From NCBI RefSeq assembly GCF_017348835.2, contig NZ_CP071375.1: DNA of 64,000 nt; one strand, written 5' to 3'. Origin of the DNA: Escherichia coli (lineage in GTDB: Bacteria; Pseudomonadota; Gammaproteobacteria; Enterobacterales; Enterobacteriaceae). The position numbers were made by a program. Below, piece by piece: positions 30,455 through 33,400 of the stretch; position 1 is the stretch's first letter; every line of letters begins with the position of its first letter.

Positions 30455-33400
30455 TTAAACAAAAAAACGAAGCAAGCATACGCCTGATGGCGGTCCAAAA
30501 AAAAGAGTCATCTTGCCTAAGAGTATTGGCAGGATGGTGAGATTGAGCGACAATCGAGTTACACCGTCGCTTAAAGTGACGGCATAATAATAAAAAAATG
30601 AAATTCCTCTTTGACGGGCCAATAGCGATATTGGCCATTTTTTTAGCGCAACATTTGCGGTAAATTCCCTTCTCCATACAGGTGTAGTGCACCGACCGCG
30701 ACCACATATCGCCCCGGCGGCATGGCGCGTAATTTATCCCGCCAGGCGAGATTTCGCTGATGCATCAGCACATCGTACAGCGACTGACTGAACGTATTGG
30801 GCAGCGTTATTTCATTATTTTGCGGCGGCGCATTCAGCCACCAGCTCATCATTTGTTGCAGCAACCGTGCGTTGGTATGCCAGTGGGTCAGCGTATCGTC
30901 CAGCAGTGCCAGTCCTTTGTCAGGGAGCTGGAGCAACATGGTAATCTGGTTTTCAGCCCCTTCCAGTTCAATCACGGGTTTATGTTGTTGCTTCGCCGCC
31001 TGCAATAACTGGTAATCGATACCGTATTCTGCCCGCAGCCCCAGTTTTTGTGCCTGCGTCGCCTGAAGAACCATCGCGATTTGCCACAGCGGTTGGGTAG
31101 AAAAGAGTGACGGAGAAATGCCCATCACCTGGCTAATGTGCTGCAGATTTTGTAATTGCTCCTCGCTAATGCGCTCTTCCAGCGCCTCACAGGCAGGCAA
31201 ATTAGCAAAAGGCGTATCGCTGGTGGAAACATCCGCCTCGACGATCAGCGCATCGGCGTTTTTGAGCTTTTTGAGCAAACGGGTGGGCAGGGGAGCCATA
31301 TCGTGGCTACCCATATGAATACTGCCGAGCAGATGAAAATGGCGATTGCCGGGGAGGGTGATATCAATGGCAGGCCAGGTGTAATGATTACCGCGCAGCG
31401 CGGCCCAAAGCGTTTTTACCCGGTACAACAGATCCATACGACCTCCCTTTGTGAAATATCATGCTAGCGCGCGGGGAGGGATGGCGCAAATGGAGTTGGG
31501 GACTTGTTTAATGTGTTTGTATGATTCAGTATGTTCTTGTATCGCTATTCACAGGGAAGCAACAGTTAAAAACTATGAAACAGGCAACAAGAAAACCGAC
31601 GACACCCGGAGATATTCTTCTCTATGAATATCTGGAACCGCTCGCTTTGAAAATCAATGAGTTAGCAGAGTTGCTGCATGTTCATCGTAATAGCGTCAGT
31701 ACACTGATCAATAATAATCGTAAACTCACCACTGAGATGGCATTCCGTCTGGCGAAAGTTTTTGATACCACAGTCGATTTTTGGCTAAACCTCCAGGCGG
31801 CAGTTGATCTTTGGGAAGTTGAAAACAACATGCGCACCCAGGAAGAATTGGGACGGATTGAAACAGTGGCTGAATATTTGGCACGCCGTGAAGAGCGTGC
31901 AAAAAAGGTCGCGTAAGGCCAAAACATCGCTTCATCTCGTAGGCCGGATAAGGCGTTCACGCCGCATCCGGCATCCGAGTACCATTGCCTGATGCGACGC
32001 TTACGCGTCTTATCAGGCCTACAAACCTGTGCCTGAACCGTAGGCCGGATAAGGCGTTTACGCCGCATCCTGCAGTCATGCGTCGATGCCAAATGCGCCA
32101 CCCTAAAGCAGCGCATCCGCAATGATGTACTTATTCCTTCGGTTTAAACCGCAGCAACCGGTTGGCGTTACTCACTACGGTAATCGACGAGAGCGCCATT
32201 GCCGCTCCGGCAACTACCGGGTTAAGCAGTGTTCCAGTAAACGGCCACAAAATACCGGCGGCGACCGGAATACCGATACTGTTGTAGATAAACGCGCCGA
32301 GCAGGTTCTGTTTCATGTTGCGCAGCGTTGCGCGGGAAATAGCGAGCGCATCCGCAACACCCATCAGGCTATGGCGCATCAGGGTAATCGCCGCGGTTTC
32401 AATAGCAACATCACTGCCGCCACCCATCGCAATGCCGACATCCGCCTGGGCCAGCGCTGGCGCGTCGTTAATGCCGTCGCCCACCATTGCCACCTGACGT
32501 CCTTCACTTTGCAGGCGTTTAATCGCTTCGGCTTTACCGTCCGGTAGCACCCCGGCGATCACCTCATCAATCCCTGCTTCTTTGGCGATCGCATTGGCGG
32601 TGGTTGGGTTATCCCCGGTCAACATCACCAGACGATATCCCGCTTTATGCAGACGTTGCAGCGCCGCCACGCTATCACTACGCAACGGATCGCGTACAGC
32701 CAGCAGGGCTACCGCTTTCCCGTCAACCGCCAGCAGCACAGGCGTTGCCCCTTGCGATGCCTGAGCTGAAATATCTGCTTCAATCGCTTTAGTATCAACT
32801 TGCTGGTCATTTAACAGCGCCTGATTACCCAGCAATAACGCATGACCTTCAGCTTCACCGCTCACGCCCAGCCCGCGCAATGTGCGGAAACCGTTGACCT
32901 GCGGCAGCTGCATATCGCTTGCTTTATCGAGGATCGCCCGCGCCAGCGGATGGCTGGAACCTTGTTCCAGTGCCGCCGCCAGACGCAGCGCCTGCGCTTC
33001 GTCAAAATCAGCAAATGTTTTCACTGCGACAACCTGCGGCTTCCCTTCGGTCAGCGTCCCGGTTTTATCGAACACGACGGTATCGAGTGTACTGGCGCGT
33101 TGCAGCGCGTCGGCGTCCCGCACCAGCACGCCAAACTCAGCCGCCCGCCCGACGCCGGAAATAATCGACATCGGCGTCGCCAGCCCCAGCGCACACGGAC
33201 AGGCAATAATCAGCACCGTGGTGGCAATCACCAGGGTATAGACAATCTGCGGTGCCGGACCAAAGAAATACCAGATTGCCGCACTGACAAGCGCAATAAC
33301 CACTACTACCGGCACAAATACGGCTGAGATTTTATCCGCCAGCTGACCGATTTCTGGCTTGCTGCTCTGGGCCTGGCGCACCATACGAATAATCCTTGAT

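What the first reader, a model, noticed from the sequence alone, without database searches (positions are those of the whole stretch)
30561..30645. ChiX sRNA gene whose terminator overlaps the ybaP stop codon
The 84-nt ChiX sequence is present between ybaK and ybaP and is invisible to ORF-based annotation. Its 3' U-tract (30638-30644) overlaps the convergent ybaP stop codon (30643-30645), so the two transcripts end on opposite strands at the same place.
Basis: partly seen in the sequence, partly recalled or inferred. Interest (0 to 1): 0.3.

Follow-up and report, generated by a model that had tools for sequence, protein, structure and literature searches.

The report
Known ChiX small RNA gene
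This is the well-studied E. coli regulatory small RNA ChiX at its usual reference-genome position, its terminator tail overlapping the neighbouring ybaP stop codon by two bases; the arrangement is ordinary and already annotated, and I found it conserved across many enteric bacteria.

Summary
Rfam family RF00368 (sroB, the family that holds ChiX/MicM/RybC) matches window 30561-30644 (+) over the full model at 82.1 bits (gathering score 44). The sequence is identical to chiX (b4585) of E. coli K-12 MG1655. That record already annotates chiX 507204..507287 (+) and ybaP 507286..508080 (-), the same 2-nt overlap. Published Term-seq places a very strong 3' end at K-12 507287, which is window 30644. 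This copy has the expected promoter, 5' hairpin, single-stranded seed, terminator hairpin and U7 tail. The seed pairs perfectly (12 bp each) with the chiP leader and the chbB-chbC spacer. One clause is not shown: that both transcripts end at the same place. Only the ybaP coding region ends there, and its mRNA must run on into sequence antisense to ChiX. New here: in 87 of 115 species-level loci across Enterobacteriaceae, Yersiniaceae and Erwiniaceae, the ybaP TAA sits on the last two T's of the ChiX tail. The YbaP C-terminal tail meanwhile varies from 4 to 8 residues, so the terminator tail in effect supplies the stop codon. Low interest.

The parts
30526..30531 (+). chiX promoter -35-like hexamer TTGGCA
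   Evidence: Consensus scan found TTGGCA-17 nt-GACAAT, 9 of 12 matches. TTGGCA is conserved across Enterobacteriaceae orthologs.
30549..30554 (+). chiX promoter -10-like hexamer GACAAT; the block TTGAGCGACAAT is conserved
   Evidence: The annotated +1 (A, 30561) lies 7 nt downstream.
30561..30644 (+). ChiX (SroB/MicM/RybC) small RNA, 84 nt
   Evidence: Rfam RF00368, 82.1 bits. Identical to K-12 chiX b4585 507204..507287. Published Term-seq 3' end at 507287.
30564..30582 (+). 5' stem-loop (8 bp, nt 4-22)
   Evidence: MFE fold. A hairpin is kept here with different sequences in other genera; 88 of 107 unique orthologs have MFE <= -5 kcal/mol.
30583..30604 (+). A/U-rich single-stranded linker (nt 23-44)
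   Evidence: Unpaired in the centroid fold. Its assignment as an Hfq distal-face (class II sRNA) binding region comes from the literature and was not tested here.
30605..30618 (+). Target-pairing seed UCCUCUUUGACGGG (nt 45-58)
   Evidence: 12-bp perfect complement to chiP leader -19..-8, covering the Shine-Dalgarno, and to the chbB-chbC spacer. Duplex energy -28.5 kcal/mol for chbBC, reached by 0 of 500 shuffles. Invariant in 107 orthologs, partly by construction of the search pattern.
30617..30636 (+). Rho-independent terminator hairpin GGCCAATAGCGATATTGGCC
   Evidence: Terminator scan and fold. Two stem pairs covary A-U<->G-C across orthologs, with 107 of 107 paired.
30638..30644 (+). U7 tail of ChiX; its last two bases are also the first two bases (on + coordinates) of the ybaP stop codon
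   Evidence: The 3' end at the last U comes from published Term-seq.
30643..31437 (-). ybaP (TraB/GumN family, 264 aa); stop codon TAA = 30645..30643
   Evidence: ORF list and annotation.
29960..30439 (-). ybaK (Cys-tRNA(Pro) deacylase), downstream of ybaP on the minus strand
   Evidence: ybaK lies 120-260 nt from the ChiX core in nearly all orthologous loci.
30825..30825 (+). Published Rho-dependent 3' end (K-12 507468) antisense to ybaP, i.e. where ChiX read-through is stopped
   Evidence: Adams et al. 2021, supplementary file 2. The coordinate was converted with offset 476643.

Best explanation
The feature is the chiX gene. It encodes an 84-nt Hfq-dependent small RNA transcribed from its own sigma-70-type promoter (TTGGCA-17-GACAAT) and ended by a Rho-independent terminator (8-bp GC-ended hairpin plus U7). 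The RNA has a 5' hairpin, an A/U-rich linker, a C/U-rich seed (nt 45-58) and the terminator with its U-tail, which is the Hfq-binding 3' module. It works in trans. The seed pairs with the Shine-Dalgarno region of the chiP (chitoporin) leader, which blocks translation and promotes Rho-dependent polarity. When chitosugars induce the chb operon, the chbB-chbC spacer pairs with the same seed and titrates or destabilises ChiX, which relieves chiP repression. The overlap with ybaP is most likely a by-product of genome compaction. The convergent ybaP frame runs until it meets the TAA formed by the base after the U-tract plus the last two bases of the tract, so the constrained terminator tail supplies the stop codon. 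Shown here: identity, anatomy, target complementarity, conservation and the overlap. Taken from the literature: expression, the 3' end, Hfq dependence and the regulatory circuit. Inferred: that the overlap is neutral compaction.
For: Rfam RF00368 full-length hit, 82.1 bits against a gathering score of 44. 100% identity to K-12 chiX b4585 with the same 2-nt overlap in the curated record. The locus is present in 5422 of 5426 complete E. coli genomes. The fold gives a 5' hairpin plus a terminator, z=-3.9. Promoter-like and terminator-like sites sit at the right positions. Term-seq shows a 3' end at 507287 with scores of 445,279 to 955,394 in three conditions. There is 12-bp perfect pairing with the chiP Shine-Dalgarno region and with the chbBC spacer. 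The regulatory circuit is described in Adams et al. 2021 and the papers it cites, and constitutive expression and chiP repression in bioRxiv 2021.05.11.443692. Orthologs: terminator stem covariation and a 5' hairpin kept with changed sequence. For the compaction reading: in 87 of 115 species-level loci the TAA overlaps the T-run by exactly 2 nt, while the YbaP tail after the NLP motif varies from 4 to 8 aa. In Kosakonia and Phytobacter the base after the T-run is not A, and the frame reads on 5 codons to a stop inside the terminator stem. About 19 loci have reopened gaps of 3 to 230 nt without loss of either gene.
Against: Nothing argues against the ChiX identity. For the 'neutral compaction' part, conservation of the exact 2-nt overlap across three families could also reflect selection for coupling. 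The sampled loci are phylogenetically related, so the counts are not independent events. Expression was not measured in this strain; it is inferred from identical sequence in K-12.
Confidence: 0.97

Rival explanations
1. The hairpin is a shared (bidirectional) terminator. ybaP transcription also ends at or just past the mirrored hairpin, perhaps helped by head-on collisions with the heavy ChiX transcription. The two transcripts would then overlap by about 20-30 nt at their 3' ends, and ybaK would be insulated from ybaP.
For: ybaP and chiX are a convergent pair with a single strong stem-loop at the gene boundary. A prevalent class of collision-dependent bidirectional terminators between convergent E. 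coli genes has been described (Ju et al. 2019, as summarised in bioRxiv 2022.10.23.513370). ChiX is transcribed at a very high rate (Term-seq scores). The neighbouring ushA/ybaK pair shows the same tight geometry.
Against: On the minus strand the hairpin is preceded by A7 but followed by GUCAAAGAGG, with no U-tract for 18 nt. No minus-strand 3' end is listed at this locus in the Term-seq tables, though ybaP may simply be too weakly expressed to pass the threshold. I could not obtain transcription-unit tables.
Confidence: 0.15
2. The overlap is a functional cis-antisense arrangement. Because the ybaP stop lies inside the ChiX tail, every ybaP mRNA carries sequence perfectly complementary to ChiX. 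Abundant ChiX would pair with it and control ybaP/ybaK mRNA fate, for example by RNase III cleavage, or the ybaP 3' region would act as a local ChiX sponge.
For: The geometry forces complementarity. The overlap is conserved in 87 of 115 loci across three families. Minus-strand RIL-seq reads labelled ybaP.EST3UTR (507215-507289) are found on Hfq in chimeras with ArcZ and SdsR.
Against: Those minus-strand reads are about 0.2% of ChiX reads and are confined to ChiX's own span, which fits strand leakage; the authors themselves treated them as ChiX. About 19 lineages have opened gaps of 3-230 nt and Proteus lacks the convergent ybaP altogether, yet ChiX is retained. I found no report of ChiX effects on ybaP or ybaK. 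ybaP is weakly expressed relative to ChiX, so a sponge effect is implausible.
Confidence: 0.08
3. It is not an independent RNA gene. It is only the 3' UTR or terminator region of neighbouring genes, or a short peptide gene (ATG at 30598).
For: An ATG at 30598 opens a 21-codon frame (read directly).
Against: That frame runs past the mapped RNA 3' end. It has no Shine-Dalgarno, and the ATG is not conserved: the position reads AAC, AAG or AAT in Pantoea, Serratia and Winslowiella. No plus-strand gene lies upstream whose 3' UTR this could be; ushA ends 600 nt earlier with its own terminator. A conserved promoter sits directly upstream.
Confidence: 0.01

Closest known systems
ChiX (also SroB, MicM, RybC; Rfam RF00368; E. 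coli K-12 b4585)
   Same: Identical 84-nt sequence, same flanking genes, same promoter and terminator, same seed complementarity to chiP and chbBC, and the same 2-nt overlap with ybaP.
   Different: Nothing. This is that gene in another E. coli strain.
Overlapping or bidirectional terminators between convergent E. coli genes (Ju et al. 2019 SEnd-seq; Wang et al., bioRxiv 2022.10.23.513370)
   Same: A convergent pair with one stem-loop at the boundary and no intergenic spacer.
   Different: The ChiX side is a canonical intrinsic terminator with a U7 tail. The ybaP side lacks a U-tract, and no ybaP 3' end has been mapped there. One partner is an sRNA rather than an mRNA.
Class II Hfq-dependent sRNAs (e.g. 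MgrR, CyaR), as recalled from Schu et al. 2015
   Same: A/U-rich (ARN-like) internal stretch plus a U-tailed terminator; ChiX is the usual example (literature).
   Different: Not a separate family. It is mentioned only as the mechanistic class, and Hfq binding was not testable here.
3'-overlapping cis-antisense sRNA/mRNA pairs such as GadY-gadX (from memory)
   Same: An sRNA gene convergent with, and overlapping, the 3' end of a protein gene.
   Different: GadY acts on the overlapping gadX-gadW mRNA. For ChiX all documented targets are in trans, and no effect on ybaP is known.

Membership tests
ChiX / sroB (Rfam RF00368) | Covariance-model score at or above the curated gathering score, over the full model length | tested here: met
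   82.1 bits against a gathering score of 44; model positions 1-83 of 83; E=1.8e-10.
ChiX / sroB (Rfam RF00368) | Sequence identity to the experimentally characterised E. coli K-12 chiX (b4585) | tested here: met
   84 of 84 bases identical, and the flanks are identical over 261 nt except for one ybaP base.
ChiX / sroB (Rfam RF00368) | Genomic context: between ybaK and ybaP, antisense to their strand | tested here: met
   ORFs and annotation. The same synteny is seen in nearly all of the 115 other species-level loci that have a convergent ybaP.
ChiX / sroB (Rfam RF00368) | Architecture: 5' hairpin, single-stranded C/U-rich seed, Rho-independent terminator with U-tail | tested here: met
   Fold, terminator scan, covariation or retention of both hairpins.
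ChiX / sroB (Rfam RF00368) | Seed complementary to the chiP (ybfM) leader at the Shine-Dalgarno and to the chbB-chbC spacer decoy | tested here: met
   12-bp perfect runs with both. chbBC duplex -28.5 kcal/mol, reached by 0 of 500 shuffles; chiP -21.0 kcal/mol, reached by 4 of 500. The targets were taken from K-12 because they lie outside the window.
ChiX / sroB (Rfam RF00368) | Expressed as a discrete ~84-nt RNA ending at the U-tail | tested here: met
   Published Term-seq for the identical K-12 sequence: 3' end at 507287 (+) in three conditions. Not measured in this strain.
ChiX / sroB (Rfam RF00368) | Hfq-dependent stability and activity | not testable with these tools
   Literature only.
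Bidirectional terminator of a convergent gene pair | Single stem-loop located between, or overlapping, the ends of two convergent genes | tested here: met
   Hairpin at 30617-30636; ybaP stop at 30643-30645.
Bidirectional terminator of a convergent gene pair | Transcript 3' ends mapped on both strands at the stem-loop | tested here: inconclusive
   The plus-strand end is very strong. No minus-strand end is listed in the Adams et al. tables. SEnd-seq and transcription-unit tables could not be obtained.
Bidirectional terminator of a convergent gene pair | For an intrinsic bidirectional terminator: a U-tract after the hairpin on both strands (A-tract upstream plus U-tract downstream) | tested here: not met
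   On the plus strand the hairpin is preceded by CUUUGAC, not an A-tract. On the minus strand the hairpin is followed by GUCAAAGAGG.

The most novel reading that the evidence does not exclude
The stop-codon/terminator overlap is conserved across Enterobacteriaceae, Yersiniaceae and some Erwiniaceae. It could be a selected coupling device rather than compaction. Heavy constitutive ChiX transcription, or ChiX RNA pairing with the obligatory anti-ChiX 3' end of ybaP mRNA, would terminate or destabilise ybaP transcripts and set ybaP/ybaK expression. That would give ChiX a cis-acting role beside its known trans targets.
Probability: 0.08. Interest if true: 0.35.

Novelty: already known. Interest (0 to 1): 0.07.

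Why it matters
It matters little as a discovery. ChiX is a textbook sRNA, and its coordinates, including the 2-nt overlap with ybaP, are in the curated K-12 annotation. There are two practical points. First, automated RefSeq/PGAP annotation of E. coli strains omits chiX, so ORF-based views of this locus do miss a highly expressed regulator. Second, the overlap causes real ambiguity in transcriptomics: one RIL-seq study had to re-label 'ybaP.EST3UTR' as ChiX. The comparative result is a tidy small example of how a constrained RNA element fixes the end of a neighbouring protein. An sRNA terminator tail supplies the stop codon of the convergent gene in most enteric genera, and the frame runs on into the stem where the TAA is lost. 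This does not open a new question.

Tried and rejected
(1) I looked for transcription-unit or TSS tables to locate the ybaP mRNA 3' end and the ybaK promoter. Thomason et al. 2015 is not held. The SMRT-Cappable-seq supplements mention none of the three genes. No supplements are held for Conway et al. 2014.

(2) I searched for ChiX together with 'bidirectional terminator' and with RNase III, dsRNA and antisense. Neither turned up anything specific to this locus.

(3) I checked the ChiX-silencing genetic screen for an anti-ChiX clone from this locus and found none.

(4) RNAalifold on a global MAFFT alignment recovered only the terminator stem, because the 5' hairpin shifts position between genera. 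I replaced it with per-sequence folding.

(5) duplexfold with full-length RNAs gave unrealistic long-range structures and a poor shuffle control. I redid it with the single-stranded linker only and with a longest-perfect-run measure.

(6) I considered a small peptide from the ATG at 30598 and rejected it: the frame runs past the RNA 3' end and the ATG is not conserved. 

(7) One pattern hit, L060 (a Lindowbacteria MAG), has no hairpin or T-run. I treated it as a chance match.

Full report
**Observation.**

- The plus strand reads ...GACGGGCCAATAGCGATATTGGCCATTTTTTTAGCGC....
- The T-run is 30638-30644 (seven T) and base 30645 is A.
- On the minus strand 30645..30643 is TAA. It closes a 264-aa ORF at 30643..31437, which is YbaP (98% identical to K-12 YbaP).

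**Identity.**

- A scan of the whole window against Rfam 15 at gathering thresholds returns RF00368 'sroB' at 30561-30644 (+). The score is 82.1 bits against a gathering score of 44, E=1.8e-10, over model positions 1-83 of 83. sroB is the Rfam name for the RNA later called MicM, RybC and now ChiX (from my own knowledge). This is consistent with the K-12 record, which annotates this sequence as 'small regulatory RNA ChiX'.
- Window 30440-30700 aligns without gaps to K-12 MG1655 507083-507343 with a single mismatch, inside ybaP. The 84 nt of chiX are identical.
- The MG1655 RefSeq record annotates ncRNA chiX (b4585) at 507204..507287 (+) and ybaP at 507286..508080 (-). The 2-nt overlap is thus already public annotation.
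- The 351-nt locus is found in 5422 of 5426 complete E. coli genomes.
- A PGAP-annotated strain with 100% identical sequence lists only ybaK and ybaP.

**Anatomy.**

- A sigma-70-like promoter (TTGGCA, 17 nt, GACAAT; 30526-30554) sits with the annotated +1 A at 30561 seven bases after the -10.
- The RNA folds into an 8-bp 5' hairpin (nt 4-22), a long A/U-rich unpaired linker, and a terminator hairpin (30617-30636) followed by A plus U7. The MFE is -24.1 kcal/mol, z=-3.9 against shuffles.

**Orthologs.**

All but one are from Enterobacterales. The exception, L060, has no hairpin or T-run and looks like a chance match.
- Among 107 unique ortholog sequences, the terminator stem is paired in 107 of 107, with A-U<->G-C exchanges at two pairs.
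- The 5' hairpin is retained with quite different sequences in different genera; 88 of 107 have MFE <= -5 kcal/mol.
- The promoter block TTGGCA...TTGAGCGACAAT is conserved within Enterobacteriaceae, while Yersiniaceae use a different upstream sequence.

**Function.**

- The targets lie outside the window, so I took the chiP leader and the chbB-chbC spacer from K-12.
- ChiX nt 45-56 (window 30605-30616) form 12 perfect pairs with chiP positions -19 to -8, covering the Shine-Dalgarno.
- ChiX nt 47-58 plus nt 38-44 pair with the chbBC spacer (-28.5 kcal/mol; 0 of 500 shuffles as good).
- This matches the published circuit. ChiX is constitutively expressed and represses chiP. It is titrated by the chbBC spacer and by ChiZ, and enhances Rho-dependent polarity in chiPQ (Adams et al. 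2021 and the papers it cites).
- Hfq dependence rests on the literature.

**Transcript ends.**

Supplementary file 1 of Adams et al. 2021 lists a 3' end at 507287 (+) in all three conditions, with scores of 445,279, 552,306 and 955,394. It is classed 'primary: chiX; antisense: ybaP'. That position is window 30644, the last U of the tail.
- The same study lists a Rho-dependent end at 507468 (+), window 30825, antisense to ybaP. This is where terminator read-through is stopped.
- No minus-strand 3' end is listed for ybaP.
- The statement that both transcripts end at the same place is therefore not supported. The ybaP reading frame ends there, and its mRNA must continue into sequence antisense to ChiX.
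- On the minus strand the mirrored hairpin is preceded by A7 and followed by GUCAAAGAGG, with the next U-run 18 nt away. It is not a canonical intrinsic terminator in that direction.
- I could not obtain transcription-unit tables.

**Is the overlap conserved?**

- I located the ybaP homolog by tblastn in each oriented locus and extended it to its stop. Of 115 species-level loci with a convergent ybaP, 87 have TAA overlapping the T-run by exactly 2 nt.
- Four Pantoea have TGA overlapping by 1 nt.
- Four (Kosakonia, Phytobacter and relatives) have the stop inside the 3' arm of the terminator stem, a 17-nt overlap.
- Nineteen have gaps of 3-230 nt: Hafnia, Rouxiella, Erwinia, most Pantoea and most Buttiauxella.
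- One, Phytobacter massiliensis, looks aberrant.
- Proteus has ChiX without a convergent ybaP.
- The YbaP tail after the conserved NLP motif varies from 4 to 8 residues (...NLPQMLR, ...NLPEMLKKG, ...NLPAMLQPQG, ...NLPELLRADNQ), while the stop stays on the T-run.
- Where the base after the T-run is G instead of A, the frame reads on as ...QKNGQ* to a TAA or TAG in the stem.
- The simplest reading is that the constrained terminator supplies the first available stop for a frame whose tail is free to drift, which is compaction rather than a device. The reopened gaps in several lineages fit that reading.
- Caveats: the loci are related, so the counts are not independent events.

**A practical consequence.**

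- A RIL-seq study states that 'ybaP.EST3UTR was considered to be ChiX'.
- Its tables list ybaP.EST3UTR at 507215-507289 on the minus strand, in chimeras with ArcZ and SdsR. They list chiX at 507241-507288 on the plus strand.
- The minus-strand counts are about 0.2% of the ChiX counts and are confined to ChiX's own span. Strand leakage from a very abundant RNA is the simplest explanation. A real anti-ChiX RNA is not excluded.

**Comparison and verdict.**

- This is ChiX itself, not a relative. Every defining feature that could be tested was met.
- The overlap belongs to the common class of tightly packed convergent gene ends. A large class of bidirectional terminators between convergent E. coli genes has been described. 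The neighbouring ushA/ybaK pair has the same geometry: the ushA 3' end at window 29959 abuts the ybaK stop at 29960-29962.
- Membership of the bidirectional-terminator class is not established for ybaP, because there is no U-tract and no mapped minus-strand end.
- Novelty: already known. Interest is low. The only added value is the comparative observation about the stop codon.

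Noticed in passing
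window 37153-64000: This ~27-kb stretch after ybaT has no counterpart in K-12 476-545 kb. It carries a TolC-family gene (37462-38817), a 5808-aa ORF (38920-56346) annotated in RefSeq strains as siiEA 'BapA-related adhesin', and downstream ORFs of 442, 1115 and 720 aa that look like type I secretion components. The first 4 kb of the island (37100-41100) matches about 1000 of 5426 complete E. coli genomes.
   Followed up: partly
window 29921-29962: There is a second tight convergent pair. The ushA stop (29921-29923) is followed by the hairpin GTGCCGGATATTTGCATCCGGCAC (29931-29954). The published ushA 3' end maps to 29959 and directly abuts the ybaK stop codon at 29960-29962 on the other strand.
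   Followed up: partly
window 30825 (K-12 507468), + strand: A published Rho-dependent 3' end lies antisense to ybaP, about 180 nt beyond the ChiX terminator. This implies measurable read-through of the ChiX terminator into ybaP antisense.
   Followed up: no
K-12 507215-507289, minus strand (window 30572-30646): RIL-seq tables of McQuail et al. 2023 list minus-strand reads labelled ybaP.EST3UTR in chimeras with ArcZ and SdsR. The authors re-labelled them as ChiX. They amount to about 0.2% of ChiX reads, which suggests strand leakage, but a real anti-ChiX RNA is not excluded.
   Followed up: partly
window 16816-16880: The DnaX programmed -1 frameshift element (Rfam RF00382, 96.8 bits) lies inside dnaX. 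It is known biology.
   Followed up: no
window 24803-24881 and 31942-32019: Rfam naRNA4 (REP/BIME-type repeat) hits. The second scores on both strands and lies in the ybaQ-copA spacer, where the window carries about 135 nt of extra or duplicated sequence relative to K-12.
   Followed up: no
window 21281-21333: The spacer just after adk is about 104 nt shorter than in K-12 (53 nt against 157 nt between the aligned blocks).
   Followed up: no
window 31521-31916: The longest ybaQ ORF is 131 aa from an upstream ATG. K-12 and RefSeq annotate a 113-aa product (342 nt).
   Followed up: no
window about 30508-30532, and orthologous loci: A block ATCTTGCGCAATAGTATTGGCAG overlapping the chiX -35 is conserved in many Enterobacteriaceae genera but has diverged in Escherichia (TCTTGCCTAAGAGTATTGGCAGG). 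It could be a divergent ybaK promoter or a regulator site.
   Followed up: no
L026, L041, L048, L066, L094 (Phytobacter, Kosakonia and relatives): In these species the base after the ChiX T-run is G, not A. In four of them ybaP reads 5 codons further (...QKNGQ*) to a stop inside the 3' arm of the ChiX terminator stem, whose loop-proximal sequence differs from that of E. coli. L026 is aberrant, with an apparent 87-nt extension.
   Followed up: partly
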